Positions 23,501 through 50,808 of a DNA stretch of 64,000 nt are shown one piece after another (within the stretch, counting starts at the first letter, position 1; each line of letters starts with the position of its first letter). A program made the position numbers and the translations under genes. The notes beneath the pieces are model-generated. The model was not told the origin of the DNA. It ran no database searches and worked only from the letters and a program-made list of their open reading frames with translations. Source of the stretch: Candidatus Omnitrophota bacterium (GTDB taxonomy: Bacteria; Omnitrophota; Gorgyraeia; Zapsychrales; Zapsychraceae). Location: contig DATDQB010000013.1 of NCBI GenBank assembly GCA_035292445.1, positions 82,132-146,131 on the forward strand. The letters run 5' to 3'.

Positions 23501-26500
23501 GCGCCCTGTCATCTGACTTTCCAGCCGCCATCGCCGTGTCGATATAATTCCCATCACGTAGCGCATTGGCTATTTTTTCAAGCTGCTCTTCAATAATTGA
23601 ATTTGACGCCTCCTCGCCTTGAGGATTAAAAGGAGCATACCCCGCAGCAACCGTTTGTAATCTTTCTTGCAAATTCAAAAGTTCTGCTCTCGTCAACACG
23701 CCGCTTTCCACTCGAATCTCTTCTTCCGGCGTCAACATCGCCGCATCGGCAAGCTGGAACGGAGCAAATAAAATTCGCCGATCATACAGGTTGTCCGCAT
23801 TATCGTGGATAGCAAAAAATCGTTTCAACTTTCTTTTTACATCAATTAATGTTCTGTCATCAAGGGTTGTGTTAAAAACAATGGATTCATGAAGCACCAT
23901 ATTCTTTGAAGTGATAATGCTTTTATTGATTTCTCTGGCAATGGCGATATCTTCATCGCTAAATCCCGATTCCATATATCTGGCCTGGGTATTTCTAGCG
24001 ACTTCATCCATAATTTGGCTTAAATATTCCCATGTAATGATTGTGCCTGTATCTGGGCCTTCCTGCACCTTGGCCCCCGATTTAATCAACGTCCACAGCC
24101 AATATTGGGCTTTCTTGGCCGTAGCTAAATCAAACATGGTTCTTCCGCCATTATGCAAGTTGTCTACGGCAACAGCCGCTCCTTGTTTTCGATAACCTAG
24201 CGTATATGTCAGCAGTTCATATAAGTTCTTATATATTTCAGCTCTCGCTATATTTCCCTCTGGAACATGTAATAAATCGGCATATAACCCTTCATTATAA
24301 ACAGGCGGCGCCACTTCCATTTCTTCAACATCGGCTCGGAAGATTTCGTTTTCTTTGGGAATGGCGATTGGTGTCGCTGCCCAAGCTTGAAGTTTGCCTT
24401 GTTTGCGTTCATCTATTTTGTCACCTATAAATCCTGTGGTAGCTATTTCATCCGCGGCCGGGTCCATCGGCGCTCCATCTGGATATCTGCGTGAGGTCAT
24501 TCCCGTCCACATGCCGCCTTCAGGATGAACACCGCGTTTTTTACTGGCCGATAAATTAAGGCCTGTATAAGGTCTAAACGGTTTGTCTTTCATGCCTATT
24601 TTATCCAATCCCGGCCATACGCGTTTCTTCAAAAACCAAGCGAGTCGTATCGCTGAAGCACCCCAATCCCAACGTCCATCATTCGAAAACTTGATATGAT
24701 GGCGGCCTGCCCAGAACATTAATTCCAGCATTAATGTCGCCTCTTCGACTTCATGCATAAAAATAAGATTGATCTCTTCTTTAAGACCTAAAAACTCCTT
24801 TGTTTCAATGGCCGTCTCCACAAACAATTTTACTTCTTCCCAATGCTCCAATTTCGGCACAACAATATCAATGCCTTGTCTCGGATCGGCTTCTAAAGCC
24901 TCGAAATTAGGTTCAACATAATACGCCAAGTCTCTCATCATCATTGATACCGGCATACCCTTATAGGATTCATGCCGTGACCACAATTGCAATCCGCTTG
25001 GCCTTTTTGTTACTGTCGGCCAATATTTCCTGGGTAATACTCTATAAATTTTATTTTTGTCTCCATGTTTTACGCTCTTGAGTCTTCCGTTAATAATATC
25101 GGCACCGATTTGGTGTTCGGCAAACCTTTTGTCACTATCTATTCCAGCGGCATCTTCATCGTCACCAAAGATTCTTACAGGTCTCATCGCTTCTATATAT
25201 TCAGCTATCGCTGGATTACCCTCAATAATTGCTATGATTTCTTCATCAGTTTTTTCCTTTAAACTTATTCCAAACTTCTTTTCCACTTCATCCAATACAT
25301 TTGACCCAAACGCACTCAAGGCAAAAAATAGATTCCATGGACCTGACAATATGCCGCCTGCTTTTGTTAACCTTTCTGGCGCTTCGTCGACTTTCCAATC
25401 CCCTTCTAATATTTCACGCACGGTCAAAGTATTTCCATACGCATCGCTCACCTTATCATCCATATTAGGAATATAAGAATTTTCTCCGCGCTCAGCCGCG
25501 TTTATTCTTTCCCCGCGTTTCTTTAATAACTCGAGCTGCCGCTCGCCGAACTTCTCCATTAAATGCGCTATTAATGCCTGGCTTCGCGGATTTATGATTT
25601 TTCCACTTCCGACATCTCCTTCAAATTCGCTTAAATCTACGGCCTGTCCTTTTTGATCCAACACCTCTCTAATATCTAAATCCTCTACGCCCGCCACCAT
25701 CGCCGCATCGCTGGTCGTCAGCAGCCGGATGTGATCAGGCTTATCTGAATAGTCATCGAATAGTAATGCCTCATTGCGGATGAACGGAACAATATAGGCG
25801 TGAGACGATTGGAACTGCACTTTCGGTTTAACGAGCATGATCTGGCCTTGATTCGCGGGGACATCTTCCCGGCGGAACACGGGCAGCTTATCAAAGTCAG
25901 GATGGACAACAATTCTTGATGCCAGAGAGCGCGCGACCCTTTCAATGATATCCTGGTATCCTTTTAAACGTTTATAGTCATCCGATATGGTTGGTATCCT
26001 GCCCAGAACAACATCTAATATGCTCCAGTAAATTTGATAATCAATAAGGTCTTGAGCTTCTCTGTAAACGGAATTAAACCTACCATTGACTTGACTGATG
26101 GCAGAGTGAACTCTTCGACGGACTATGGTAATGGTATTTAAATGGCCTTCCGTAATGGGAGTGATCCCGTGGCGTTCCGCCACCTCCAATAACTCCTTTA
26201 GATCATCCGCATTCGGCGGTTCTTCTCGCCATATTTCCGGCCTGCGCGCAAGACGCTGCTGGCGCTCAGCATCCGTTGCGGTGGACGGATCTGTAATGAC
26301 CGCCTGGTCGGCCAACCGGCTGCTAGCCTCATCGACCGCCAATTGGGCGCTGTCACCGGCAATTGTTTCTAATAAATCAACATCCGTATCAAAAAAACGG
26401 CCCGTGGGGGAAGAAGCATTGATAACCTGCTGTTGGACAGCCTCAGGAAATTGGCCTAAATCGCCTTCTATTTCGGCTACCAACATCGCCATGTCCCTGC

Positions 26501-27587
26501 CATCAACGCCCCCTGAGAAATATTTACGCGGGATGATGTCTTTTGTCGCCGGGTCATAGTCTTCCCTAATAAAGTTATAGACGCCTTTCTTGAAGGCATC
26601 GAGGTATTGCTCATAGATCTTATTCTTGGCGTCCTTATCTTCAATATCAATGCCGCGGATCTTGTTTTTGTCCACGTAAACCTGGCCTAAAAGAGAATTT
26701 TTCAGGTTCATCTTGTACCACGTCGCCAAGATCATGGAACTGTAGATCTGGCGTAAACTGGCAAACGTCTTGCCTTCATTGACTTCCTTTTCGATCTCGG
26801 GGATAACAACATCCTTAAGAATCTGGGATTGGATGGAGCTCATTTCAGTCGTCAGTCGTCGGTCGTCAGTCGTCAGTAACTGATGACTGACGTCTGATGT
26901 CTGATGACTTAATGCCAAATAGTCTTCCTCCAGCATGACCTTCAAATGGCTTTCAACGACAAAAGCGGTGCCGTTATTTTCATACACCAGCGCGCGGTCA
27001 GGGACGATCCATACCTTATTAAAGGTATTCATCGGGATGTTGGTCGTGCCGAATTTCTCGTAGGCCTTATCTTTGACGCGTTGCCAGAATTCTTTGCCCA
27101 GCTCCTGATCGGGGTGGATCAAAGACGCCGTCAATTGTTTGAGGATATAATCCTGCGCTAAAAGGTCGCGGCCCATTTCGGTCGTACCAAAAGCTTGGGG
27201 AATGATACGGTCTTTCTCATAAGGGGAAAGATTTACCCAGAGTTCTTTTTCGGGAACGGTCAGGGAAGCCAAGAAGTATTTAACTAATCTATTCGCTTCT
27301 TCGCGAAGCTCTTCGCCCTCGAGGCTCGTATGGCCAGTATCAACAATAAAATTAAAATGTAGGGGATTAACGGGATCGATCGTGATGCCTTTGACCATGG
27401 CCGGCATAAAGCCAGGGCTTGGGGAAACCATCACCCCCGGAGCCGGTAAATTAAGATATGTGGGTACGCCTTGGGCGTAAACGGATGCAGGCGGCGTGAC
27501 AGAGCTAAAGATAAAGGTAAAGGCGATAAAAGCGGATAAACCTTTGTGGAATCGGGTATTTCTTCTTCGCTCGAGAAAGCTTATCAT
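14589..27587 (-). CDS. Giant multi-module secreted protein, paralog C (4332 aa): signal peptide, conserved N-module, unknown modules, malate synthase-like module, repeated linker modules, isocitrate lyase module, unknown and coiled-coil region, class I fructose-bisphosphate aldolase module, possible GlpX-like module, conserved C-module.
   Basis: A 13 kb uninterrupted ORF with AGGGGGA upstream of the ATG at 27587 and signal peptide MISFLERRRNTRFHKGLSAFIAFTFIFSSVTPPASVYAQ. Malate synthase motif: HHIKFSNDGRWDWGASAIRLAW. ICL signature: HIEDQAHGCKMCGHMSGKVL plus LIVARTDAESAEWITG and YYLGGWDAQ. Class I FBA motifs: GRGRNYFASDGSPSTG, LKGSAIKVSMVTSGD (Schiff-base Lys context) and IVFLSGGQTADQAARNLNAIVKEAKRVGAPWRYAASFSRA. 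The C-terminus is VGGIDLNPALLNLQIKRDGRGIPLP...GFIPVIINIAPINNMPMLLGI. Confidence 0.85.
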   Translation of the reverse strand: MISFLERRRNTRFHKGLSAFIAFTFIFSSVTPPASVYAQGVPTYLNLPAPGVMVSPSPGFMPAMVKGITIDPVNPLHFNFIVDTGHTSLEGEELREEANRLVKYFLASLTVPEKELWVNLSPYEKDRIIPQAFGTTEMGRDLLAQDYILKQLTASLIHPDQELGKEFWQRVKDKAYEKFGTTNIPMNTFNKVWIVPDRALVYENNGTAFVVESHLKVMLEEDYLALSHQTSDVSHQLLTTDDRRLTTEMSSIQSQILKDVVIPEIEKEVNEGKTFASLRQIYSSMILATWYKMNLKNSLLGQVYVDKNKIRGIDIEDKDAKNKIYEQYLDAFKKGVYNFIREDYDPATKDIIPRKYFSGGVDGRDMAMLVAEIEGDLGQFPEAVQQQVINASSPTGRFFDTDVDLLETIAGDSAQLAVDEASSRLADQAVITDPSTATDAERQQRLARRPEIWREEPPNADDLKELLEVAERHGITPITEGHLNTITIVRRRVHSAISQVNGRFNSVYREAQDLIDYQIYWSILDVVLGRIPTISDDYKRLKGYQDIIERVARSLASRIVVHPDFDKLPVFRREDVPANQGQIMLVKPKVQFQSSHAYIVPFIRNEALLFDDYSDKPDHIRLLTTSDAAMVAGVEDLDIREVLDQKGQAVDLSEFEGDVGSGKIINPRSQALIAHLMEKFGERQLELLKKRGERINAAERGENSYIPNMDDKVSDAYGNTLTVREILEGDWKVDEAPERLTKAGGILSGPWNLFFALSAFGSNVLDEVEKKFGISLKEKTDEEIIAIIEGNPAIAEYIEAMRPVRIFGDDEDAAGIDSDKRFAEHQIGADIINGRLKSVKHGDKNKIYRVLPRKYWPTVTKRPSGLQLWSRHESYKGMPVSMMMRDLAYYVEPNFEALEADPRQGIDIVVPKLEHWEEVKLFVETAIETKEFLGLKEEINLIFMHEVEEATLMLELMFWAGRHHIKFSNDGRWDWGASAIRLAWFLKKRVWPGLDKIGMKDKPFRPYTGLNLSASKKRGVHPEGGMWTGMTSRRYPDGAPMDPAADEIATTGFIGDKIDERKQGKLQAWAATPIAIPKENEIFRADVEEMEVAPPVYNEGLYADLLHVPEGNIARAEIYKNLYELLTYTLGYRKQGAAVAVDNLHNGGRTMFDLATAKKAQYWLWTLIKSGAKVQEGPDTGTIITWEYLSQIMDEVARNTQARYMESGFSDEDIAIAREINKSIITSKNMVLHESIVFNTTLDDRTLIDVKRKLKRFFAIHDNADNLYDRRILFAPFQLADAAMLTPEEEIRVESGVLTRAELLNLQERLQTVAAGYAPFNPQGEEASNSIIEEQLEKIANALRDGNYIDTAMAAGKSDDRAPELGPRVARRDSLTGEIVPEEPASIEHMTDMIASLRERDQKGTPKEGDAAMVAAQLEELKEMVVAFEDARIREEGVGLLEMIQTLQRAIRDSGGQNVPLTTAQEAIQTFYRILIPRSSGDVLSFRTLAAYDQDKIGPLQRKIKEVTETLERLVEKTVVSVAETDAAMAVTERYRDADIFEAMILSDYFSTRILLDRIEDYSVIEGMISLDFRAMRISNQFPKNAKRFVSQFDDLQLRDKVTRALDYLSLMEPERRRVLYRFRDRLQSEEASNSYILSKIADFDDSRRRSYYPESSILQNLDSVGFERLDKLRMDPHRIAELAYGETFDNMFRAVDAAAGDILFTQRKKMGHLGKRGGTSQEPIDAAMVGDESAQKEWFRAIDRLAQVRERIEKAKYEDGDIGDLPSLLEEERVLEETIDRTRAQWDDSIDNAMGAVRILEAVLTSEEGYRTADELRGAIAELEKRLGQIGNELVEYQDQVVIVEGLEGEKEQTELAIREIRERITSLTSAAAMAASDKDRAPELGPRFVRGDPLSGELVPEEPAASEKHMRGIIASLRERDQKGTPKEGDAAMAVDARAVAEEYFNWLLQSVAGFKAQYDRALPGGMYEAQVEADLDRAEKELAFLAALLGKEVSVDKLNRVDRKSAIEQLARLPDELAGLIKRWEKIKDKNDEEWARSRDPEERYNEVPTFGDVKGTVSSRLRDVWAMIEVGKERFTGALSPEVLARYEALVAQMNIPGPEGGMVARMGGDAAMVASLEERAQIMQERWNQQRAEGRWIKRVWSAEKVAAAQGPVLRTWSIANHMAEKFNGKLRRYFRDVKSIDTFGPSNELMAEAMAVSEILQAEPITKTKLLDVAYDYEVDALYNHLASLGFIDAETGVIQDSFSMMENVKQEYYERIDDAFKERSGIIFALLQQNLFKHIEGYYLGGWDAQMLRGKGDRARDQYDYLGILAARISKLNTWHAIYQEIARAQMTPEQRSLVRPVDFYVPIFVDFDEGHLKVQEMARRVLSMGEEETHIAAVHIEDQAHGCKMCGHMSGKVLDSTDHWIKTLLEARFEFDRMGLNTLIVARTDAESAEWITGHDDGRDQKFILGVTEADEAERLEEAVKALEKDLVAKKMPAEKIAATITRFRSDWQKYIPLIHDSKGRVQTYQDVITAANQSGLEASELQKVHNQWKIMANLLTIDEIVARTIAANQDKIGMTVEEWRAFVAAIPYERDVRFFDLVKAKAREIGIRLIDSSQIQLVDEAPEAFSGTINVLWDFQLTRSVEKRSRTIWMINSGMEMAIARSKSALPYTDISWFEQHHPHIGEVKQWSTALDAEARRLLFAEGWYDEILERFDQAFRDRIKTQVEKIIETYHNNRPVDPDSYSYALKALQELDLAHDDAVGLLDATTRIKANNTSPSFYWPLAKTEDGSRLMTPEERKAFLPEQGKYSQFNFITYGGSTFLHAATMQFLQGTDGKGGYLRDGMDGLAQWQEIGRKQKSGMSINPQVFAGNRGLEFMTSVAIGETAAISFEGGKGDTMKDRAGLKAKDDLMGEIHRQIAEKETALQHDLSVNELADLINKLRISLIGVRTRITQLRTRERSLKDGPEERSSIAQQIAQLTTDRHTIEGLLKRAISRIRPLEGADEVAFPLEDVSLDHIEERFAAPETFYPEPAQDIENELYILRAGQRAILLEIGQLSDELGSSELNEKRARINRLIGQGEQLLSGDSAMMAADRILEDLLAGRIMVKDAYDRLLSLGESSEDDVIALIVNSGLGLGLLQVMDEINRDPNPVGTVVDGEQEEVDDLDTGATQVLPPRPISEYPPEDEDHAMLTDVQKTLLRERVQSLTGRGRNYFASDGSPSTGNALLKRYGFKIVDAKAYPDADKVDGANYLLRERMRRMFYTAPGIQYVFGGIIVQDESVSYVDDEDKPLLATHVEGRGISIIHKTDRGIDDDTQSPRPSREGLDPEKLSKPKGLGIDNLRAIMDMIPTSHADKFRQTFTIDTDAGLPTQRNIEANMEMLAQHVLDVQLLGRVPTPEPEVLIKGSHDIEASAEANRRILKVYTEAASRLGVDLKGSAIKVSMVTSGDKAPKDTPEEVARATVAVHMDSLPPELGTIVFLSGGQTADQAARNLNAIVKEAKRVGAPWRYAASFSRASKETALTVLNGDFVNEQAAQNEFVRASFRIQAASLGVMDEYDALIERIGVEAFVARVDVYGRMVQVNIDNEQLGQMIRDFDAAMAAQPNKEEATRLRAIRDELPVILTTHTAAKLTALGLRGAYQKILDVVKSVSDTSEQRTQIALLFTQLHQTTQRGEFAEVAIMVLGKEGTIAKDELKRMQTAITDVVDGFAKRIFERTIKELGIIMMVRVSEGFGRDEVAESLKSNEVIMPNLIQHEVEAIKAAIDRGDEFYLSENGRYYPILDAIIDVVEGTNQFVTNSGNRSLEEAPENEAGANSDIVVGRGVRDLGNVPDGYVHQFITNVGEDADALRAAAVEVGGEKYHLYDPELYAAHPKEGILAYLKFLAAIRRQELSQVQEEIIVMNRKRETAFVRAIEEVKQEYGIQGVSVVQKTLQDGTVAHGLRATLTPALYEAATGRSYGVHKTVITVGGSAEGFMNLAIAGAAKYIGAVAGVRVYNAKMNKNAAGEELPDLSERYNFKLAEASELRVIRESYGDAGAILNGQKFFTEQDVKGDVVGIFTVIANDWVFGQTGTQATEGGQTSVVIKIYNVGNELKAEIFPVEVDHTIVSIDAAMTEQGDGAMLTPAEAWEIAEDLLEEMGDEELFGDRVGLLARLIHYLDGKELSTPLSEDAPDLYSKGDLTRATHINSARDFKVREIKFRRIIREFLEGQLIVNFPSEEEDVSSSAGIDRAVTAQETTPVGGIDLNPALLNLQIKRDGRGIPLPVEMQPLQNIHIDGFIPVIINIAPINNMPMLLGIADFIPDEPIEQAQDEEEKAPALSMRKFTLRDVLDRIAIFKG
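21780..21985 (-). repeat. Internal ~200-nt direct repeat within giant gene C, copy 1; the other copy is at 23340..23550 (~88% identical). Each encodes a duplicated ~65-aa linker segment.
   Basis: CCATCGCCGCGTCACCTTCTTTGGGAGTTCCCTTCTGATCTCTCTCCCTCAATGACGCTAT... occurs at both loci. The protein copies are AAMAASDKDRAPELGPRFVRGDPLSGELVPEEPAASEKHMRGIIASLRERDQKGTPKEGDAAMAVD and TAMAAGKSDDRAPELGPRVARRDSLTGEIVPEEPASIEHMTDMIASLRERDQKGTPKEGDAAMVAA. Confidence 0.8.
26845..26925 (-). repeat. Hairpin-forming short tandem repeat (TCAGTCGTCAG/CTGATGTCTGATG units) inside the N-module of gene C; a homologous insertion sits at 4050..4125 in gene A.
   Basis: Gene C has CAGTCGTCAGTCGTCGGTCGTCAGTCGTCAGTAACTGATGACTGACGTCTGATGTCTGATGACT. 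Gene A has GTCATCAGTCGTCGGTCATCAGTCGTCAG...CTGAAGACTGATGTCTGATGTCTGATGACTGAT. Both are imperfect inverted repeats built from 8-11-nt units. They encode SDVSHQLLTTDDRRLTTEMSS and SDISLQSTHENLTTDDRRLMTQ, which are absent from paralogs B and D at the same position. Confidence 0.7.
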
Positions 27588-44015: not shown

Positions 44016-45263
44016 ATGCCCAACCCACTCCAAAAGATGACAAACCGCCGTGGCCAGCACGTCATGGAATATTCGATTGTTCTTATTATCACCATGGTGG
44101 CCATGATGATCGCCCTTCCTCATGTCATGCGAGGCTGGAACGCCAACATGAAAGGATGGGAAGACTCCGCCATTGATTCTCTCGAAGACCCCCTCTTGGA
44201 AGCGCCTGTTGTCACCTCATTGCCCGGTTGCGCCTGCAACTGGTCTATGCCCCTTGGTTGCGGCAATGGCTCTTGTTCTCGACAACAAATGGCTAGTCAA
44301 TGTATTTGTAATCCTCCTGGTTGCGGCTCAACAAATCTTACACTAAATTGCACGGAAGGAACTTATCAATGCCCTTGCGATTCGACATGCTGCGAACCTT
44401 GGCAGCCGACGGGCCTTTGCGGTGCCGCTGCCAATCCTCCTTGCCTGACCGGAGAGATGCGAAAAACACGCCTTTGTGGTTGCAACCCCACACCCCAATC
44501 GCAATGCCTGCCCGATCCGGCATGTACATTCGCCTGCCAAGGCATTAACGGAAATCCTCCCGGGATAGACCAGCCACTGAATTCGCAAGAATGCCCAAAC
44601 TATGAGAGTTGTCTGAGCCAAAATAGGAGGAATGTTTTGGTGGACGCTTGTAGCGGAGGGTGCGACCATTGCGAATATATTTGTACTGCTCCCTTTTTTG
44701 CCAATAATAACCAGTGCACAACCTGCCCCATCGGTAAAGTTTTTCAAGGGGTTTGTACTACCGGCCAATGCCAATACACGACAGCCTGTTCCGGAGGGAC
44801 GTGTCAAACAGTCGGCGCTCCGCCGCCGCTACCGCCACCTACATGCGGCACAAATGGCTTACCCTGTTGTACAGGTAACGTTTGCAATGCCGGTCTACTT
44901 TGCAGCAATGGGACTTGTATACCATGCGGCAATCCGAGTGAAGCCTGTTGTACTGGGAGCGTTTGTTTTTCTAGCACATGCATTAATGGTACCTGTGTAT
45001 GCGGCGATCCCGGCCAGTCGTGTTGTGCGGGCGGCGTTTGCAATAGCGGCTTAAGTTGTAATAGCAGTTATCTTTGTTCATGCGGCGACATTGATGAAGA
45101 TTGTTGTAGCGGTGGTACTTGTAACGGAGCTCTTCAATGTAACGGCGTTGGTAAATGCTGCCCCATCACTTATACCGGTTACTGCAGTATAAGCAGAAAT
45201 TGTTGCGAGGTCGATCTCGACTGCCCTCCATCCGAATCCTGCGTATATATCCCCCTTCCATAA
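44016..45263 (+). CDS. Secreted Cys-rich repeat protein with an Flp-type (class III) prepilin-like leader
   Basis: AGAGGGA lies 8 nt upstream of the ATG. The N-terminus RRGQHVMEYSIVLIITMVAMMIAL fits the Flp G/XXXXEY motif plus a hydrophobic helix. The remainder is ~15% Cys, with ~25-aa repeats (CCTGNVCNAGLLCSNGTCIPCG, CCTGSVCFSSTCINGTCVCG, CCAGGVCNSGLSCNSSYLCSCG, CCSGGTCNGALQCNGVGKCC) and a PPPLPPP linker. Confidence 0.7.
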   Translation: MPNPLQKMTNRRGQHVMEYSIVLIITMVAMMIALPHVMRGWNANMKGWEDSAIDSLEDPLLEAPVVTSLPGCACNWSMPLGCGNGSCSRQQMASQCICNPPGCGSTNLTLNCTEGTYQCPCDSTCCEPWQPTGLCGAAANPPCLTGEMRKTRLCGCNPTPQSQCLPDPACTFACQGINGNPPGIDQPLNSQECPNYESCLSQNRRNVLVDACSGGCDHCEYICTAPFFANNNQCTTCPIGKVFQGVCTTGQCQYTTACSGGTCQTVGAPPPLPPPTCGTNGLPCCTGNVCNAGLLCSNGTCIPCGNPSEACCTGSVCFSSTCINGTCVCGDPGQSCCAGGVCNSGLSCNSSYLCSCGDIDEDCCSGGTCNGALQCNGVGKCCPITYTGYCSISRNCCEVDLDCPPSESCVYIPLP

Positions 45264-45360
45264 CTCTAATTAAATATTCCTGATAAGAACGCCTGTCTTT
45301 TAAGGTAAAAAATTATAGCTGGCGGGGCGGTGTTCTGGATAGAAAACAGTTTAATGTTAA

Positions 45361-45810
45361 TTATTGTGCCGGCCAAGCGCCGACCGTATACCAATATTCA
45401 TAACCCCATGGGTCGTCGCCATTCGTGTCACGAAAACACACTTCAACCTGAAACACTACCCTTCTGGAGGAGGAATCCATACCTGCGGAACCCATAATCC
45501 TTATACTTCCAAGGTCATAATGGTGGTCACCGTTATTAAACCTGAAATGCCACGCCCGTAATGCGACAATAGGTTCGCCAACCAAGGCTTGATTAAAATC
45601 CACTATCTCGGGCTGAGTAATACACGGCGTGTTGGACCCAACATTGGTCCAGGGACGATGCAGCTCTTTTACTACGGGCGCATAAGGGATGCAAACCGGT
45701 TGTTGGGCGCATGTTTCGCGGGGAATTAAATAATCTCCTATGGAGCACAAAATGGAGATGATCAAACAGGAAAGGATAATATAATAAACATTTTTATTCA
45801 ACTTCTTCAT
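45361..45810 (-). CDS. Small secreted protein, paralog 1 of a 3-gene tandem family
   Basis: Starts at the internal MKKLNKNVYYIILSCLIISILC signal. Shares C-x-x-A-Q-x-C after the signal, a central DHHYDLGSIRIMGSAG-type block and a C-terminal W-x-A-Q with the two neighbouring ORFs. Confidence 0.55.
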   Translation of the reverse strand: MKKLNKNVYYIILSCLIISILCSIGDYLIPRETCAQQPVCIPYAPVVKELHRPWTNVGSNTPCITQPEIVDFNQALVGEPIVALRAWHFRFNNGDHHYDLGSIRIMGSAGMDSSSRRVVFQVEVCFRDTNGDDPWGYEYWYTVGAWPAQ

Positions 45811-45817
45811 ATCCACT

Positions 45818-46243
45818 TTATTGCCACCTTGCGATAACATAATGGGAACTAAACGCCATATTATCGTCATCATTACCGTCGTTAAGGCAACCTTGGGAAG
45901 TAAAATATACCTGAGATTGGTTAGAACCGGGAGCGGACATAAAGACTCTCATCTCATCTAGGTGATGGTCATTGCTCGTCGAATACCTTACTTCAAATCC
46001 CGCAGATGCCAACCACACATCAAGGCCGATACCTCCGCCTGCGGACACATAGGTCGGATTTGGATTTGGGGAGGCACAGCCCCCACCACTGCTCCCGCCC
46101 ACTACGCCATATGTGGCCGTAGGTCGAATCGTTGTGCAAGATTGGGCTTGTACACAATCAGGGACCTGAAGCTCATAGGCAAGGCTTATGGCAAAGATTA
46201 AAAATAATGATAAGAGTAATATACCCAATTTACGAATTTTCAT
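45818..46243 (-). CDS. Small secreted protein, paralog 2
   Basis: MKIRKLGILLLSLFLIFAISLA signal; CVQAQSC; DHHLDEMRVFMSAPGS; C-terminal ARWQ. Confidence 0.55.
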   Translation of the reverse strand: MKIRKLGILLLSLFLIFAISLAYELQVPDCVQAQSCTTIRPTATYGVVGGSSGGGCASPNPNPTYVSAGGGIGLDVWLASAGFEVRYSTSNDHHLDEMRVFMSAPGSNQSQVYFTSQGCLNDGNDDDNMAFSSHYVIARWQ

Positions 46244-46288
46244 TCTTTATCGATCCTTCTTTACCTAAAAAAATACTTACCATTCATG

Positions 46289-46750
46289 TTATTGCCAAGC
46301 ATAAAGAACAAAATAGACCTGATATTCGTGCGCATTATCGACGTTATCGTCATGTAAACAAACGTCAATATTAAACATGATGGTGCTCCCAGACGCCCGC
46401 AAAGTGCTATAATCTATCATCGTCCTTGCCCTTTTTAAATGTTCATCACCGGAAGCGGTATAATGCAAATACCAGCCTGTTAATGCCAAAACATAATTTC
46501 TCGGATTATCGGTAAACGTGAATCCGGGCCAACTTTTGTTGACCGACGCAACGACGCAGGCCTGAGAAGAGTTCCAGGACGTCCGGCCCGTCCACCAGTA
46601 TTCCACATAAGGATACACGTTATAACACGTTTGGGCATTGACACAGCGCGGGGTTTTAAAATCATAGAAAAAATAGACGGCAGCGATGACAAGAATCGAC
46701 AAAACAAAAAAAAGAAAGGATTGCTTTTTTTGTTTTTTATTTATATCCAT
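46289..46750 (-). CDS. Small secreted protein, paralog 3
   Basis: N-terminal TM/signal (FLFFVLSILVIAAVYFF); CVNAQTC; DEHLKRARTMIDYSTLRASGS; C-terminal YAWQ. Confidence 0.55.
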   Translation of the reverse strand: MDINKKQKKQSFLFFVLSILVIAAVYFFYDFKTPRCVNAQTCYNVYPYVEYWWTGRTSWNSSQACVVASVNKSWPGFTFTDNPRNYVLALTGWYLHYTASGDEHLKRARTMIDYSTLRASGSTIMFNIDVCLHDDNVDNAHEYQVYFVLYAWQ

Positions 46751-46819: not shown

Positions 46820-47987
46820 ATGAAAAAGCATAACTTCAATTATTTAAACCAGTTGCAAGAAATTCTATTTCGACCCGTTGATCCTTCTTCCTTATCTCTT
46901 TTCAGGCTTTTTTTCGGTCTTATATTAGGCTGGTACGCTTTTCACCATATTGGGGCAAACTTGATCCACATCAAATATATCGATACCCATTTCCACTTTT
47001 CTTTATGGGGGCGGAGCATTTTGTGTCCCTGGATTGCCTGCGCAACCCCCAGCTGCGCCTTAAACCGATCCCTTTCTGGAACATCCTGATTCTCAGGGCC
47101 CAAATTGTCATTGTTTATTTCTTTGCCGGGATAGCCAAAATAAGCAAGGATTATTTGGACGGGCGCCAACTGCGCAGCCTTCTAATCAGCGATGATAGAT
47201 TGCCATTTCTGCAGTCCTTTGTATCGACAGAGTGGGGCATAACCTTATTTGTTTATAGCGGATTATTCATCGACTTACTCATCGGTTTTTTCTTGTGCTA
47301 CAAACCCACAAGGCCTTTAGCATTTTTTGTTGCCGTTATTTTTCATATAACCAACAAGTTGTTTTTCGACATCGATATTTTCCATCATTTCATGATCGCC
47401 ACCCTCATTCTTTTTGTCAAACCCGATGAACCCAGAAGGCTTTTGTATAAAATATTAAACTTTTTTAAAAAAACGGCTTGAAACCGCCCGTGTTTGAGGC
47501 CGGCTCGAAGAGCCCCCACAGATTATCCCGCCCTTTAATCAGCGCCTTCTTATTTTTATACCTGATGATCCAAGTCCTTCTGCCGTGGCGACATTTGCTC
47601 TATAAAGGCGATGTGAACTGGACGCGGGAGGGGCATCGCTTTGCATGGCGTTTAAAATCCAACGTTGTCGGCGGCGTCATGAGCATTATCGCCGTAGATC
47701 CTTCGACCGGTCAAATCACTCCCATTATTCCGTTCGATGACATCAGCCCGGAACAATACGTCCTCATGATTTATACCCCAGATATGTTATTGCAATATGT
47801 GCATTATCTTAAGGAAAAATTGGAAAAGCAGGGCATGAAAAATCCCATTATTAAAGTCGACGGCAAAATATCGGTCAACCGCAGGCCTTTCCATCCCTAC
47901 ATTGATAGAAATGTGAATCTTGCGGAAGAAAAATACAGGCTTTTTTCTTCCGCCGACTGGATCCTCCCCCCGCCGCCTGATCTTTAA
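46820..47987 (+). pseudogene. HTTM-domain (vitamin K-dependent gamma-carboxylase-like) membrane protein, split over three reading frames by two frameshifts at homopolymer runs
   Basis: The pieces 46820..47089, 47005..47481 and 47478..47987 lie in three different frames. Together they carry HTTM hallmarks: FRLFFGLILGWYAFHHI and NWTREGHRFAWRLKS. The frame changes coincide with GGGGG (~47018) and TTTTTTAAAAAAA (~47461-47473). Confidence 0.5.
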
Positions 47988-47989
47988 AT

Positions 47990-48024
47990 AAAAAAGGCAA
48001 CCTTTTTGGGGTTGCCTTTTTTAC
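47990..48024. terminator. Bidirectional rho-independent terminator between the convergent HTTM gene and the inositol-lipid operon
   Basis: AAAAAAGGCAACCTTTTTGGGGTTGCCTTTTTT: a GGCAACC/GGTTGCC stem with an A-run and a T-run. Confidence 0.65.
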
Positions 48025-48043
48025 TGTTAATATCACAAACGCT

Positions 48044-48268
48044 TTACGTCTGTTCGCTTTTCAAGACGCCTCTCAATTTTGTCGCAATCTTCGCATAGCC
48101 ATAACCCATAATAAAAATGAGCAAACCGATGAGGACCTGTGTGAAATCCTGATTAACCACATGAATGAATAACACCAGTACCCCTAAGAAAATGATAAAG
48201 ACACCGCTGCGGTAACAGGTACGACTTAAATTATCCAGCGCTTTGGCATTTTGCTCTTTCATAAACAT
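48044..48268 (-). CDS. Small membrane protein (74 aa, 2 predicted TM helices), last gene of the MIPS operon
   Basis: The ORF has hydrophobic helices FIIFLGVLVLFIHVV and LIGLLIFIMGYGYA. Confidence 0.35.
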   Translation of the reverse strand: MFMKEQNAKALDNLSRTCYRSGVFIIFLGVLVLFIHVVNQDFTQVLIGLLIFIMGYGYAKIATKLRGVLKSEQT

Positions 48269-48306
48269 CCTCCCTTGTTAATAACATTCAGTATAACATC
48301 AATCAC

Positions 48307-48516
48307 TTATTTCTTCCTCATATATTTAAAAAAACTCCACAGGCAAATAAGCTGGGACGCAACAATGACGATGGCCACATATCCATGGAACCAAGAAACG
48401 AACGTTATAGTGGAGGCCATATGAACGACGAACAAAAAGGAAAAGAAAGCAAAGCACAAACCCCACAGCTCGGCTCGGGTGACAGGGTTGGGTGAGGGGT
48501 CCTGCGGTTTAGTCAT
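48307..48516 (-). CDS. Small membrane protein (69 aa, 2 TM helices)
   Basis: The ORF overlaps the MIPS stop by 8 nt. Helices: LWGLCFAFFSFLFVV and VAIVIVASQLICLWSFF. Confidence 0.35.
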   Translation of the reverse strand: MTKPQDPSPNPVTRAELWGLCFAFFSFLFVVHMASTITFVSWFHGYVAIVIVASQLICLWSFFKYMRKK

Positions 48517-49825
48517 AATACTCCATGCCTAAATGGGTAATGAGGTCTTCCCCCCGTAAATAACGCAGGGTGTTTTTAAGTTTCATCAGCTGAATGAAAA
48601 GGTCATGCTCCGGATAAAGCTGCGGTGCTGTCATAGGGCTTTTGAAATAAAACGACAGCCATTCCTGGATACCGCGCATACGAGCGCGCTGGGCCAAGTC
48701 CATAAAAAGGACCAAATCCAAAACAATGGGAGCCGCCAAAATACTGTCGCGGCAAAGAAAATTCATTTTTATCTGCATCGGATAACCGAGCCAGCCGCGG
48801 ATATCGATATTATCCCAGCTTTCTTTGTTATCCCCACGCGGCGGATAATAATTGATGCGCACTTTATGGTAATAGTCTTTGTAAAGCTGCGGATAAAGCT
48901 TGGGCTGCAGGATATAATCCAACACGGAAAGCTTGCTCTCCTCCTTGGTCTTAAATGACATCGGGTCATCAAGGACCTCTCCGTCTCGATTGCCGAGGAT
49001 ATTGGAGGAATACCAGCCGTCCAAGCCTAACATCCTTGCCTTAAGCATGGGAGCAATGGCTGTCTTGAGCATCGTTTGCCCGCTTTTAAAATCTTTACCA
49101 GAGACCGGAACATTCTTTTTTCTGGCCAAATCAACAAGCGCGGGAATATCAACGGTCAGATTCGGTGCGCCGTTGGCAAAAGGAACGCCACACTTAATAG
49201 CGGCATACGCATAAATCATGCTGGGGGCGATGGCTTCGTGATTGTTCTCCATTGCTTTTTCAAAGGCCTTGAGCGTTTCATGCACCGGCTGACGCTCCAG
49301 GTAGATTTCCGTCGAACCGCACCAAACCATGACCATCCGTTCCAGCTTGTTCTGCTTTTTGAATTTCTCGATATCATCAATCAGGGCTTCGGCCTGTTCA
49401 CGCTTGCTCTTTTCTTTCTTGACATGCGTTCCATGGATACGGCTGACATACTTTTGACTGAAAACCGCCTTCCAGGGCTTGATCGCCTCCAGCTGAGGGC
49501 GCAGTTTATCGATCAGGCCGATCTCCAACACACCGGCCTTGACCGCGGAAATATACGCATCGTCGGGGATCGGATCCCAAGAACCGAAGACCATATCCGA
49601 CAAATCAGCTAACGGAACAAATTCTTTGATGGGAACAACGCGGTTGTCCGTACGTTTTCCTAGCCGGACGGTACTTAATTGGGTCAAGGAACCTATCGGC
49701 AGGGCCAACCCTCTTTTGATAGCTTCAACTCCGGCGATAAAAGTCGTTGAAACCGCCCCTAACCCGGGAAGCAAAACGCCCAGCTTGCCTTTAGGCTCAA
49801 GGATCTTAATCTTCGTCTCTTTCAC
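48509..49825 (-). CDS. myo-Inositol-1-phosphate synthase (MIPS/Ino1 family)
   Basis: GKDFKSGQTMLKTAIAPMLKARMLGLDGWYSSNILGNRDGEVL matches the conserved MIPS core (SGQTK...SYNHLGNNDG region). NGAPNLTVDIPALVDLA. 438 aa. Confidence 0.75.
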   Translation of the reverse strand: MKETKIKILEPKGKLGVLLPGLGAVSTTFIAGVEAIKRGLALPIGSLTQLSTVRLGKRTDNRVVPIKEFVPLADLSDMVFGSWDPIPDDAYISAVKAGVLEIGLIDKLRPQLEAIKPWKAVFSQKYVSRIHGTHVKKEKSKREQAEALIDDIEKFKKQNKLERMVMVWCGSTEIYLERQPVHETLKAFEKAMENNHEAIAPSMIYAYAAIKCGVPFANGAPNLTVDIPALVDLARKKNVPVSGKDFKSGQTMLKTAIAPMLKARMLGLDGWYSSNILGNRDGEVLDDPMSFKTKEESKLSVLDYILQPKLYPQLYKDYYHKVRINYYPPRGDNKESWDNIDIRGWLGYPMQIKMNFLCRDSILAAPIVLDLVLFMDLAQRARMRGIQEWLSFYFKSPMTAPQLYPEHDLFIQLMKLKNTLRYLRGEDLITHLGMEYYD

Positions 49826-50420
49826 TTAAGTTTCCTTCCGTTCGTTTCCATGTGTAGTAAATTCGGTCCAATGCCGTGAAGTGTGTGGCGAAAGCGAGGA
49901 TCCACAGCGCCGGGACAATTGCTCCAAACAATCCGCCGATGCAAATTATGAGAATCCTCTCCGGCCGCTCGATCATGCCGACATCACAATGCCTGATGAG
50001 GCTCTCGGCCCGGGCCTTGGTATAACTGGTCAAAAAAGAACCGGCAATCACCGCCAGTGTCAGTAGGACATAATCGGCCTGATTGGCCTTGGCGAAATGG
50101 ACCGTCAGGCCACCAAAGATCAGAAAATCGGAATAACGGTCGATCACCGAATCAATAAAAGCGCCGAATTTGGAAGTTTTATTGGAGCTTCTGGCCAGGG
50201 AGCCGTCCAGCATATCGAAAATCCCGGCAAACAAAATGACCAAAGAACCGCTGGAGAAGTGGCCATGGGCGTACAAGATACAGCCTAAAATATTCACCAA
50301 AAACCCCGTCATGGTCAACTGATGGGGGGTCACGTTATAGCGGTCCAAGCCTACCCCAATTTCGTTGACAACCGCTTTGACGGGCTGATAAATAAGATCC
50401 CTTAGCCTTGCCTTTGTCAT
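49806..50420 (-). CDS. CDP-alcohol phosphatidyltransferase family protein; from context a phosphatidylinositol-phosphate or archaetidylinositol-phosphate synthase-like enzyme
   Basis: DMLDGSLARSSNKTSKFGAFIDSVIDRYSD fits the CDP-OH_P_transf motif D-G-x2-A-R-x8-G-x3-D-x3-D. A multi-TM protein that overlaps the MIPS start. Confidence 0.7.
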   Translation of the reverse strand: MTKARLRDLIYQPVKAVVNEIGVGLDRYNVTPHQLTMTGFLVNILGCILYAHGHFSSGSLVILFAGIFDMLDGSLARSSNKTSKFGAFIDSVIDRYSDFLIFGGLTVHFAKANQADYVLLTLAVIAGSFLTSYTKARAESLIRHCDVGMIERPERILIICIGGLFGAIVPALWILAFATHFTALDRIYYTWKRTEGNLSERDED

Positions 50421-50544
50421 AACCTCTTAACCTTTAAAGAATAATGAAGCATTTTAGTATGAGTTACCGCAAAAAACAAGCAAATAAAAAGGCCTGCCCG
50501 AGATAAATCGGACAAGCCTTTTGAGCCATGAGAAAAGGCAGATT

Positions 50545-50808
50545 TTATTTTTTGGCTTTTGAGGTTTCTTCTTGTTGTTGGACTAATTCTTCAGCATGGC
50601 GTAAATACTCCTTGCTGGGTTCATAGCCTTTTTCCTCAGCCTCTTCTTTGCTAATACGCTCCACTCCTTCCACTTGAGAAAAACGGCTATTTTCCGGATG
50701 GTACTTCTTGCCGTTTTTCGTGACGTAGACCCATTCAGCAAAACACACGCTCGTAAGCATGGCCGAGGTGATAAGCCCCAAAAACAGAACTTTCAACGCT
50801 CTTTTCAT
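50545..50808 (-). CDS. Small secreted protein (87 aa), unknown function
   Basis: Signal peptide MKRALKVLFLGLITSAMLTSVCFA, then a charged Lys/Glu-rich tail. Confidence 0.4.
   Translation of the reverse strand: MKRALKVLFLGLITSAMLTSVCFAEWVYVTKNGKKYHPENSRFSQVEGVERISKEEAEEKGYEPSKEYLRHAEELVQQQEETSKAKK

What the first reader, a model, noticed from the sequence alone, without database searches (positions are those of the whole stretch)
48044..50420. Inositol-phosphate synthase plus CDP-alcohol phosphatidyltransferase operon (bacterial inositol lipid or solute synthesis)
A MIPS/Ino1-family gene (48509..49825) overlaps a 204-aa CDP-alcohol phosphatidyltransferase gene carrying the D-G-x2-A-R...G-x3-D-x3-D motif (49806..50420). 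It is followed by two small membrane-protein genes and a shared terminator. The pairing is the signature of phosphatidylinositol-phosphate synthesis from inositol-1-P (as in actinobacteria and archaea), or of di-myo-inositol-phosphate osmolyte synthesis. It is uncommon in most Gram-negative lineages.
Basis: partly seen in the sequence, partly recalled or inferred. Interest (0 to 1): 0.5.

Follow-up and report, generated by a model that had tools for sequence, protein, structure and literature searches.

The report
Inositol phospholipid synthesis operon in Omnitrophota
An uncultured Omnitrophota bacterium carries a two-gene operon, an inositol-phosphate synthase plus a membrane transferase, that most likely makes phosphatidylinositol-type lipids; this is a well-known pathway seen here in a new lineage, so it is real but ordinary.

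Summary
On the minus strand there are four genes. The first is a 204-aa CDP-alcohol phosphotransferase (50420..49806). It overlaps by 20 nt a 438-aa myo-inositol-1-phosphate synthase, MIPS (49825..48509). Two small two-helix membrane ORFs and a strong bidirectional terminator hairpin follow.

The MIPS is 60% identical to the biochemically proven Bacteroides BT_1526 enzyme. By profile, by predicted fold and by residues, the transferase groups with phosphatidylinositol-phosphate (PIP) and archaetidylinositol-phosphate synthases. It does not group with PgsA or PssA, and only weakly with DIPP synthase. It keeps the full catalytic motif and every mapped inositol-phosphate and lipid-groove residue of M. 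tuberculosis PgsA1.

The transferase–MIPS pair recurs in other Omnitrophota, once with a different MIPS type. That supports a functional link.

Most likely function: glucose-6-P → inositol-1-P → PIP → PI. The last step would need an unlinked phosphatase.

- Both gene families are abundant in environmental Gram-negative phyla.
- The small ORFs are not conserved partners: one is an orphan, and the other belongs to a small family seen so far only in Omnitrophota and found elsewhere without inositol genes.
- The osmolyte reading is unlikely.

This is a new member of a known kind, of low to moderate interest.

The parts
49806..50420 (-). Inositol-phosphate-accepting CDP-alcohol phosphotransferase (PIP-synthase-like), 204 aa. 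It is the first gene of the unit.
   Evidence: PF01066, 58.6 bits. Best NCBIfam models are archaetidylinositol-P synthase (157 bits), PIP synthase (139) and BT_1523 PIPS (125), against DIPPS 81, pgsA 32 and pssA 31. Closest solved relatives are M. tuberculosis, M. kansasii and Renibacterium PIPS (E 4e-25 to 8e-19). The AlphaFold model (pLDDT 90) is best matched by PIPS structures, TM 0.75-0.83. Motif and substrate residues are conserved.
48509..49825 (-). myo-Inositol-1-phosphate (inositol-3-phosphate) synthase of the long Bacteroides/eukaryote-like type, 438 aa. GTG start overlapping the transferase stop by 20 nt.
   Evidence: PF07994 347 bits and PF01658 116.5 bits. E 2e-160 and 60% identity to 7NWR, which I take to be BT_1526 MIPS. 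The N-terminus and length agree with 11 homologues, mean column identity 81%.
48307..48516 (-). Orphan 69-aa ORF with two hydrophobic segments. Its ATG overlaps the MIPS stop by 8 nt.
   Evidence: ORF. GGAG lies 4 nt upstream of the ATG. Two hydrophobic segments. The only match among 5.8 billion proteins is itself, named 'hypothetical protein' by NCBI. ENA and JGI gene callers did not call it. Whether it is a real gene is unproven.
48044..48262 (-). 72-aa two-helix membrane protein. It belongs to a small family whose named members are nearly all Omnitrophota. The last gene of the unit.
   Evidence: 33 relatives among 1.84 billion representatives, 10 of them at E<=1e-10; most alignments (25 of 33) start at residue 3 of the 74-aa ORF. 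A conserved G-Y-x-x-(V/I/A)-K-(I/V)-(S/A) motif is visible. AGGGAGG lies 6 nt before the second ATG. In two other Omnitrophota genomes, homologues lie in unrelated contexts.
47986..48025 (.). Bidirectional intrinsic-terminator hairpin that ends the unit and the convergent + strand gene.
   Evidence: RNA fold -22.8 kcal/mol, z -4.33, 0 of 200 shuffles as stable. The 7-bp GC core GGCAACC/GGUUGCC is followed by UUUUUUAUUU.
50487..50522 (-). Terminator of the upstream 87-aa gene. It marks the upstream boundary of the inositol unit.
   Evidence: 15-pair stem followed by a T-rich tail.

Best explanation
This is a short operon for de novo synthesis of inositol glycerophospholipid by the prokaryotic two-step route.

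- The MIPS converts glucose-6-phosphate to L-myo-inositol-1-phosphate.
- The six-helix membrane transferase moves the phosphatidyl group from CDP-diacylglycerol onto inositol-1-phosphate. The product is phosphatidylinositol phosphate (PIP).
- A phosphatase encoded elsewhere then yields phosphatidylinositol.

Overlapping stop and start codons couple translation of the two enzymes.

What is shown: the identity of both enzyme families, conservation of the catalytic and substrate-binding residues, the operon layout, and recurrence of the pair in related genomes.

What is inferred: the lipid donor (CDP-DAG), the dephosphorylation step, and the final lipid. The two small membrane ORFs probably ride along on the transcript and are not needed for the chemistry.
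For: MIPS:
- Both Pfam domains score far above threshold.
- It is 60% identical over 418 aligned residues to BT_1526. That enzyme's activity was assayed and its structure solved (PMC9246714).
- The four classic MIPS motifs align with a eukaryotic MIPS.

Transferase:
- The curated models rank AIPS 157 > PIPS 139 > BT_1523 PIPS 125 > DIPPS 81 >> pgsA 32, pssA 31. All 28 clade members give the same top four.
- In the alignment to M. tuberculosis PgsA1, D69, D72, G73, A76, R77, G86, D90 and D94 form the catalytic motif.
- S132, K135, R155 and R186 correspond to Mt S132, K135, R155 and R195. Mutating those residues impairs inositol-phosphate use (PMC4634129).
- M70 and P153 correspond to the acyl-chain groove residues M69 and P153.
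- S132, R155 and R186 are invariant in 28 relatives, and P153 is nearly invariant.
- The predicted fold (pLDDT 90.2) matches PIPS structures best: TM 0.75-0.83 at 28-34% identity. DIPPS gives 0.66 and PgsA 0.52.

Linkage:
- There is a 20-nt overlap with a Shine-Dalgarno-like sequence.
- Transferase followed by long MIPS is conserved in Omnitrophota relatives L087, L088, L089 and L174.
- A syntenic relative, L090, pairs the transferase with a short-type MIPS in the opposite order. Two Desulfobacterales loci also have a short MIPS just upstream.
- So the pairing appears with two different MIPS types.
Against: - The transferase scores below the curated cutoffs of all three inositol-lipid synthase models (157<180, 139<170, 125<350). 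It belongs to a clade in which I found no characterised member.
- Its best profile is the archaeal (CDP-archaeol) enzyme, so the donor lipid is not settled.
- Mt D31, a CDP-DAG contact, is H33 here and N in most relatives.
- No PgpA, PAP2 or HAD phosphatase, no IMPase and no CDP-DAG synthase appears in the Pfam annotation of the window. The last step is therefore unsupported locally.
- In the wider transferase clade (Acidobacteriota and others), MIPS is usually not adjacent. It was adjacent in 12 of 126 loci, and 6 of those are this same strain.
- I found no inositol lipid reported from Omnitrophota. The full-text search gave nothing specific.
Confidence: 0.8

Rival explanations
1. The transferase is a stand-alone di-myo-inositol-phosphate-phosphate (DIPP) synthase. 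It would condense CDP-inositol with inositol-1-phosphate to make the compatible solute DIP, so the pair would make an osmolyte rather than a lipid.
For: DIPP synthases also use inositol-1-phosphate as acceptor and belong to the same superfamily. The DIPPS model is hit at 81 bits. The A. fulgidus IPCT-DIPPS structure is matched at TM 0.66.
Against: - The DIPPS score is far below its cutoff (81 vs 580) and below three lipid-synthase models.
- There is no cytidylyltransferase domain in the 204-aa protein, and no NTP-transferase gene anywhere in the annotated window.
- The acyl-chain groove residues M69 and P153 of MtPIPS are kept.
- PIPS structures fit better than DIPPS.
Confidence: 0.04
2. The enzyme works like the archaeal archaetidylinositol-phosphate synthase. 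It would attach inositol phosphate to an ether-linked or isoprenoid CDP-activated lipid rather than to CDP-diacylglycerol, and so make an unusual inositol ether lipid.
For: The best-scoring curated model, for the window protein and by best E-value across the 28 clade members, is the archaeal AIP synthase. The clade is common in Desulfobacterales and Acidobacteriota. From my own knowledge, not tested here, members of those groups make ether lipids.
Against: - The margin over the bacterial PIPS model is small (157 vs 139 bits), and both are below their cutoffs.
- The closest solved structures are bacterial PIPS bound to CDP-DAG.
- No archaeal-type lipid genes appear in the window.
- Sequence alone cannot assign donor specificity.
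Confidence: 0.06
3. The transferase uses another phosphorylated alcohol, for example glycerol-3-phosphate as a divergent PGP synthase, and its adjacency to MIPS has no functional meaning. MIPS would then supply inositol for something else.
For: - Automatic pipelines label many clade members as PGP synthase.
- Most clade members in Acidobacteriota have no adjacent MIPS and sit next to greA and mla-like genes.
- Arginines that bind a phosphate could in principle also bind glycerol-3-phosphate. This is my inference.
Against: - The pgsA models match only the short motif region, at 27-32 bits against cutoffs of 109-304.
- The PgsA fold match is poor (TM 0.52, 16% identity).
- The MIPS pairing recurs with two non-orthologous MIPS types.
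- The genes are translationally coupled.
Confidence: 0.05

Closest known systems
Mycobacterial/actinobacterial PIP synthase (M. tuberculosis PgsA1, M. kansasii and Renibacterium salmoninarum PIPS; PDB 6H53/6H59, 6WM5, 5D91/5D92)
   Same: - Same six-helix CDP-alcohol phosphotransferase fold (TM 0.75-0.83).
- Same D-x2-D-G-x2-A-R...G-x3-D-x3-D motif.
- Same inositol-phosphate-binding Ser/Lys/Arg/Arg residues and the same groove Met/Pro.
   Different: - Only 28-34% identical.
- Below the curated PIPS cutoff (139<170).
- Mt D31 is His here.
- Paired with a long Bacteroides-like MIPS rather than the short actinobacterial Ino1; TIGR03450 scores only 25 bits against a cutoff of 638.
- From my own knowledge, the mycobacterial operon also carries acyltransferase and mannosyltransferase genes. 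None is next to this operon.
Bacteroides thetaiotaomicron inositol lipid cluster BT_1522-BT_1526 (Heaver et al. 2022, PMC9246714)
   Same: The MIPS is 60% identical to BT_1526. A PIP-synthase-type transferase is encoded nearby, and the same two-step PIP-to-PI logic is expected.
   Different: - The transferase is only distantly like BT_1523 (125 bits against a cutoff of 350).
- No PgpA-type PIP phosphatase (BT_1525), no PI-dihydroceramide synthase (BT_1522) and no GtrA-like gene (BT_1524) lies in the neighbourhood.
- The two genes here overlap.
Archaeal archaetidylinositol-phosphate synthase (NCBIfam NF040950)
   Same: It is the best-scoring curated profile. The alignment is full length (residues 13-193 on profile positions 7-190 of 191) at 157 bits.
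   Different: The score is below the equivalog cutoff of 180. The host is a bacterium with Gram-negative envelope genes (Lgt, secretin, AsmA). The donor lipid is presumably CDP-DAG.
IPCT/DIPP synthase of hyperthermophiles (A. fulgidus 4MND; NCBIfam NF041135)
   Same: It uses the same acceptor, inositol-1-phosphate, and has a related membrane domain (81 bits; TM 0.66).
   Different: There is no cytidylyltransferase domain or gene here. The profile and fold matches are much weaker than for the lipid synthases.

Membership tests
myo-Inositol-1-phosphate synthase (EC 5.5.1.4; Pfam PF07994 + PF01658) | Both family domains score above the Pfam gathering thresholds | tested here: met
   PF07994 scores 347 bits (cutoff 25) and PF01658 scores 116.5 bits (cutoff 27).
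myo-Inositol-1-phosphate synthase (EC 5.5.1.4; Pfam PF07994 + PF01658) | Close full-length similarity to an enzyme with demonstrated MIPS activity | tested here: met
   E 2e-160 and 60% identity over 418 aligned residues to 7NWR, which I take to be BT_1526. Activity and structure of BT_1526 are reported in PMC9246714.
myo-Inositol-1-phosphate synthase (EC 5.5.1.4; Pfam PF07994 + PF01658) | Conserved MIPS sequence blocks. The motif list is recalled from the literature: GWGGNNG, LWTANTERY, NGSPQNTFVPGL, SYNHLGNNDG. | tested here: met
   The aligned counterparts PGLGAVST, VWCGSTEIY, NGAPNLTVDIPAL and SSNILGNRDG are visible in the alignment to eukaryotic MIPS 9M53. Most of these positions are invariant in 12 homologues.
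myo-Inositol-1-phosphate synthase (EC 5.5.1.4; Pfam PF07994 + PF01658) | Catalytic conversion of glucose-6-phosphate to inositol-1-phosphate | not testable with these tools
   This needs an enzyme assay.
Actinobacterial short-type Ino1 (NCBIfam TIGR03450) | Score above the equivalog cutoff | tested here: not met
   25.2 bits against a cutoff of 638. The window enzyme is the long Bacteroides/eukaryote-like type.
Phosphatidylinositol-phosphate synthase (class I CDP-alcohol phosphotransferase using inositol-1-phosphate) | CDP-alcohol motif D-x2-D-G-x2-A-R...G-x3-D-x3-D | tested here: met
   D69, D72, G73, A76, R77, G86, D90 and D94 are present and invariant in 28 relatives.
Phosphatidylinositol-phosphate synthase (class I CDP-alcohol phosphotransferase using inositol-1-phosphate) | Inositol-phosphate pocket residues (MtPIPS S132, K135, R155, R195) and acyl-groove residues (M69, P153) | tested here: met
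   The query has S132, K135, R155, R186, M70 and P153 at the aligned positions. Their roles come from mutagenesis in PMC4634129. S132, R155 and R186 are invariant and P153 is nearly invariant in the clade.
Phosphatidylinositol-phosphate synthase (class I CDP-alcohol phosphotransferase using inositol-1-phosphate) | Score above the curated equivalog cutoff of a PIPS/AIPS model (NF045883, NF040950, NF052561) | tested here: not met
   139<170, 157<180 and 125<350. By best E-value, no clade member appears to reach a cutoff either. It is therefore filed as 'PIPS/AIPS-like clade', not as a member of any one curated equivalog.
Phosphatidylinositol-phosphate synthase (class I CDP-alcohol phosphotransferase using inositol-1-phosphate) | Fold closest to solved PIPS rather than to other CDP-alcohol transferases | tested here: met
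   The top 14 Foldseek hits are PIPS chains (TM 0.75-0.83). AF2299 gives 0.74-0.80, DIPPS 0.66, PgsA 0.52 and PSS about 0.5, on a model with pLDDT 90.2.
Phosphatidylinositol-phosphate synthase (class I CDP-alcohol phosphotransferase using inositol-1-phosphate) | Genomic coupling to an inositol-1-phosphate source | tested here: met
   The gene overlaps MIPS. The pair is conserved in L087, L088, L089, L174, L090, L011 and L013.
Phosphatidylinositol-phosphate synthase (class I CDP-alcohol phosphotransferase using inositol-1-phosphate) | [quoted passage not shown] | not testable with these tools
   This needs a biochemical assay or lipidomics.
DIPP synthase / IPCT-DIPPS | A fused or neighbouring inositol-1-phosphate cytidylyltransferase, and a DIPPS model score above cutoff | tested here: not met
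   The protein is 204 aa with only the PF01066 domain. No NTP-transferase is annotated in the window. NF041135 scores 81 bits against a cutoff of 580. The rest of the genome was not searchable.
PgsA / PssA | Score above the equivalog cutoffs (TIGR00560, TIGR00473) | tested here: not met
   31.8 against 109 and 31.3 against 107, with only the motif region matched.
Bacteroides-type inositol lipid cluster (Heaver 2022) | A PgpA-family PIP phosphatase and a PI-dihydroceramide synthase clustered with MIPS and PIPS | tested here: not met
   No such Pfam families occur among the genes of the window or of related Omnitrophota loci.

The most novel reading that the evidence does not exclude
The transferase may represent a large clade of inositol-lipid synthases, with no characterised member that I could find, in Omnitrophota, Acidobacteriota and Desulfobacterales. 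The clade scores closest to the archaeal enzyme. Its product could be handled by dedicated envelope factors: a LolA-like lipoprotein that follows MIPS in other Omnitrophota and recurs near the gene in other phyla, or, in this strain, the two co-transcribed small membrane proteins. If so, inositol lipids would be a widespread and overlooked outer-envelope component of environmental Gram-negative bacteria, with their own trafficking partners.
Probability: 0.1. Interest if true: 0.5.

Novelty: new member of a known kind. Interest (0 to 1): 0.25.

Why it matters
Bacterial inositol lipids are still described in the literature as rare: Actinobacteria, some Bacteroidota, spirochaetes and myxobacteria (PMC9246714). 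This locus and its many relatives suggest the capacity is common in uncultured Gram-negative phyla, including the very small-celled Omnitrophota.

That gives lipid geochemists and membrane biologists a concrete gene pair to express and a lipid class to look for. It does not change the understanding of the pathway itself.

Tried and rejected
1. Conservation of the small ORFs with the inositol genes.
- The 69-aa ORF has no homologue among 5.8 billion proteins or in any fetched locus.
- The 72-aa protein has a real family. Its members in two other Omnitrophota genomes lie next to unrelated genes: rubredoxin and oxidative-stress genes in one, unknown proteins in the other.
- The closest family member sits on a 612-bp contig with no DNA available.
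- I therefore rejected the small ORFs as conserved pathway parts.

2. The two small ORFs as paralogues, or as remnants of the 285-aa lipoprotein found downstream of MIPS in relatives. No similarity was found.

3. A search for a PIP phosphatase, IMPase, cytidylyltransferase or CDP-DAG synthase in the 64-kb window, through precomputed and fresh Pfam annotation. None was found. The rest of the genome could not be searched.

4. Population variation, to test whether the small ORFs are under coding constraint. All six public copies are 100% identical in DNA, so there was no signal.

5. A riboswitch or sRNA in the leader or tail. Only sub-threshold Rfam hits to the terminator hairpins appeared.

6. 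A sigma-70 promoter upstream of the transferase. The scan found nothing in the 50421-50486 leader, and overall counts matched the shuffled expectation.

7. The metagenome scan for close relatives gave only one (L091, 73% identity), and it is cut at the end of the transferase.

8. A formal phylogeny with characterised references was not built, because reference sequences could not be imported. Profile scores and fold ranking were used instead.
Full report
**Observation**

- a 204-aa ORF, 50420..49806;
- a 438-aa ORF with a GTG start, 49825..48509, which overlaps the first by 20 nt;
- a 69-aa ORF, 48516..48307, whose ATG overlaps the stop of the 438-aa ORF by 8 nt;
- a 74-aa ORF, 48268..48044.

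Reading the DNA shows Shine-Dalgarno-like sequences at sensible distances. GGAAGGA lies 7 nt before the GTG of the 438-aa gene. GGAG lies 4 nt before the 69-aa ORF. AGGGAGG lies 6 nt before the second ATG (48262) of the last ORF.

That second ATG is the likely true start (72 aa). Most family alignments (25 of 33) begin at residue 3 of the 74-aa ORF, and gene callers called 72 aa on two public contigs and 74 aa on two others.

A hairpin with a 7-bp GC core and flanking A and U runs follows, at about 48025..47986. Its free energy is -22.8 kcal/mol, z = -4.3, and none of 200 shuffles fold as well. The convergent + strand gene ends at 47987, so the hairpin can terminate both.

Upstream, a 15-bp terminator (50522..50487) closes an 87-aa signal-peptide gene. 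The unit is therefore bounded on both sides. The promoter scan found nothing convincing in the leader, and Rfam found no known RNA element.

**Source**

The identical DNA occurs in six public metagenome contigs. NCBI attributes the proteins to a Candidatus Omnitrophota MAG.

The neighbourhood consists of ordinary housekeeping genes of a Gram-negative bacterium: ALAD, MetE, CysRS, Lgt, a secretin, AsmA and queuosine genes.

**The synthase**

The 438-aa protein hits both MIPS Pfam domains, at 347 and 116.5 bits. It matches PDB 7NWR, which I take to be the B. thetaiotaomicron BT_1526 enzyme, at E 2e-160 with 60% identity over 418 aligned residues.

BT_1526 was assayed and crystallised by Heaver et al. 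(PMC9246714). Twelve homologues align end to end with 81% mean column identity and the same N-terminal length, which supports the GTG start.

This is the long Bacteroides/eukaryote-like MIPS type, not the short actinobacterial Ino1. TIGR03450 scores only 25 bits against a cutoff of 638.

**The transferase**

PF01066 is hit at 58.6 bits. Curated NCBIfam models rank as follows:

| Model | Bits | Cutoff |
|---|---|---|
| Archaetidylinositol-phosphate synthase | 157 | 180 |
| PIP synthase | 139 | 170 |
| Bacteroides BT_1523 PIP synthase | 125 | 350 |
| IPCT-DIPPS | 81 | 580 |
| pgsA | 32 | 109 |
| pssA | 31 | 107 |

The three inositol-lipid models align over nearly the full length. The pgsA and pssA models match only the motif region.

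All 28 diverse clade members give the same top-four ranking, and by best E-value none appears to reach a cutoff.

The closest solved sequences are M. tuberculosis PgsA1, M. kansasii PIPS and Renibacterium PIPS, at E 4e-25 to 8e-19.

In the alignment to PgsA1, the chain numbering reproduces the residue numbers used by Clarke et al. (PMC4634129). The mapping is:
- the eight motif residues are present (D69, D72, G73, A76, R77, G86, D90, D94);
- the four residues implicated in inositol-phosphate binding (Mt S132, K135, R155, R195) are S132, K135, R155 and R186 here;
- the two residues lining the acyl-chain groove (Mt M69, P153) are M70 and P153;
- S132, R155 and R186 are invariant and P153 is nearly invariant across 28 relatives;
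- the one difference noted is Mt D31, which is H33 here and Asn in most relatives.

An AlphaFold model built on the 28-sequence alignment is confident (pLDDT 90.2, pTM 0.83). Foldseek against the PDB ranks PIPS chains first (TM 0.75-0.83), then AF2299 (0.74-0.80), IPCT-DIPPS (0.66), PgsA (0.52, 16% identity) and PSS (about 0.5).

**Linkage to MIPS**

Other Omnitrophota with 59-64% identical transferases (L087, L088, L089, L174) have the same order: transferase, then long MIPS.

A more distant locus, L090, shares the flanking DUF1015-Band_7-Band_7 synteny. There the transferase is paired with a 370-aa short-type MIPS in the opposite order, with a 1-nt overlap. Two Desulfobacterales loci also place a short MIPS immediately upstream.

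The same transferase clade is thus paired with two non-orthologous MIPS types. That is good evidence that the enzyme consumes the MIPS product.

In the wider clade, mostly Acidobacteriota, MIPS is not adjacent. It was adjacent in 12 of 126 loci, and six of those are this same strain. There the gene usually follows greA and lies near mla-like and LolA-like genes. I assigned those neighbour names by eye from the sequences.

**Mechanism**

The best reading is the prokaryotic two-step route described for mycobacteria and Bacteroides:
1. MIPS converts glucose-6-phosphate to inositol-1-phosphate.
2. The transferase condenses CDP-diacylglycerol with inositol-1-phosphate to give PIP.
3. A phosphatase converts PIP to PI.

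Steps 1 and 2 rest on family identity and conserved residues. The donor lipid and step 3 are inferred.

No PgpA, PAP2 or HAD phosphatase, IMPase, cytidylyltransferase or CdsA is encoded in the 64-kb window. The rest of the genome could not be examined.

**Rivals**

- DIPP (osmolyte) synthesis is unlikely. The DIPPS score is weak, no cytidylyltransferase was found, and the lipid-groove residues are retained.
- An ether or isoprenoid lipid donor, as in the archaeal enzyme, cannot be excluded from sequence. Only a small score margin supports it.
- A PGP-synthase-like role with accidental adjacency is contradicted by the profile, by the fold and by the recurrent pairing.

**The small ORFs**

Each has two hydrophobic segments, and they are unrelated to each other.

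The 72-aa protein belongs to a real family:
- 33 representatives out of 1.84 billion, ten of them at E<=1e-10;
- a conserved G-Y-x-x-(V/I/A)-K-(I/V)-(S/A) motif;
- among the ten clusters looked up, three members carry source names: two are Omnitrophota MAGs and one is a member attributed to a Bathyarchaeia MAG.

In two other Omnitrophota genomes its homologues lie in unrelated contexts with no inositol genes.

The 69-aa ORF has no homologue at all, and ENA and JGI gene callers did not call it. Only its coupled layout speaks for it.

In other Omnitrophota the position after MIPS is taken by a 276-285-aa lipoprotein with a sub-threshold LolA-like hit.

The small genes are therefore probably co-transcribed passengers, not conserved pathway parts.

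**How common it is**

They are mostly Acidobacteriota and Desulfobacterales and include cultured strains.

The MIPS search scored 8000 proteins at E<=1e-30. The best 120 are 71-78% identical and come from Omnitrophota, KSB1, Aminicenantes, Blastocatellia (Pyrinomonas) and Calditrichaeota.

A full-text search found no paper on inositol lipids in Omnitrophota.

**Verdict**

The feature is real and correctly interpreted. It is a new lineage-level member of a known pathway. The transferase belongs to a clade with no characterised member that I found, below all curated equivalog cutoffs. Interest is low to moderate.

Noticed in passing
window 46820-47987 (+): A vitamin-K-carboxylase-like (HTTM) gene is split over three ORFs. 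46820..47089 covers HTTM profile positions 1-54. 47005..47481 covers positions 119-258 in another frame. 47478..47987 holds the VKGC lumenal domain and has a 4-nt start/stop overlap with the previous ORF. About 64 profile positions are missing between the first two pieces, so the gene looks disrupted or rearranged.
   Followed up: partly
window 44016-46750: Three tandem minus-strand genes (46750..46289, 46243..45818, 45873..45361) encode 141-170-aa proteins with hydrophobic N-termini and similar C-terminal ends (...AWQ...RWQ...AWPAQ). Next to them lies a 415-aa extremely cysteine-rich ORF (44016..45263, + strand). None has a Pfam hit.
   Followed up: partly
window 5097-12530 and 14589-27587 (-): There are two giant ORFs of 2477 and 4332 aa. 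The precomputed Pfam hits listed for the larger one (malate synthase TIM barrel, isocitrate lyase, glycolytic aldolase) look odd for a protein of that size.
   Followed up: no
window 50545-50808 (-); L091 705-959: An 87-aa protein with a signal-peptide-like N-terminus and a charged tail lies just upstream of the transferase, behind its own terminator. A 60% identical copy sits in the same position next to the 73% identical transferase in the only close relative found.
   Followed up: partly
L087 8043-8900, L088 7995-8846, L089, L174 2306-3136; also L030, L080, L095, L098, L100, L103, L112, L113: A 276-285-aa lipoprotein with a sub-threshold LolA-like hit follows MIPS in other Omnitrophota. Related lipoprotein genes recur within a few kb of the transferase homologue in other phyla. 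greA lies directly upstream in 56 loci, and mlaF/E/D-like genes are nearby.
   Followed up: partly
L090 4889-6588: In an Omnitrophota-like locus with the same flanking synteny (DUF1015, two Band_7 genes), the transferase is paired with a short 370-aa MIPS placed upstream, instead of the long MIPS placed downstream. This is a replacement of one MIPS type by another.
   Followed up: partly
proteins P0121-P0153 (family of window 48044-48262): This is a family of about 70-aa two-helix membrane proteins with a conserved G-Y-x-x-(V/I/A)-K-(I/V)-(S/A) motif. Named members come almost only from Omnitrophota MAGs. One 140-aa member (P0123) is a tandem duplication of the unit. One 2062-aa protein (P0139) matched in 17 stretches.
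   Followed up: partly
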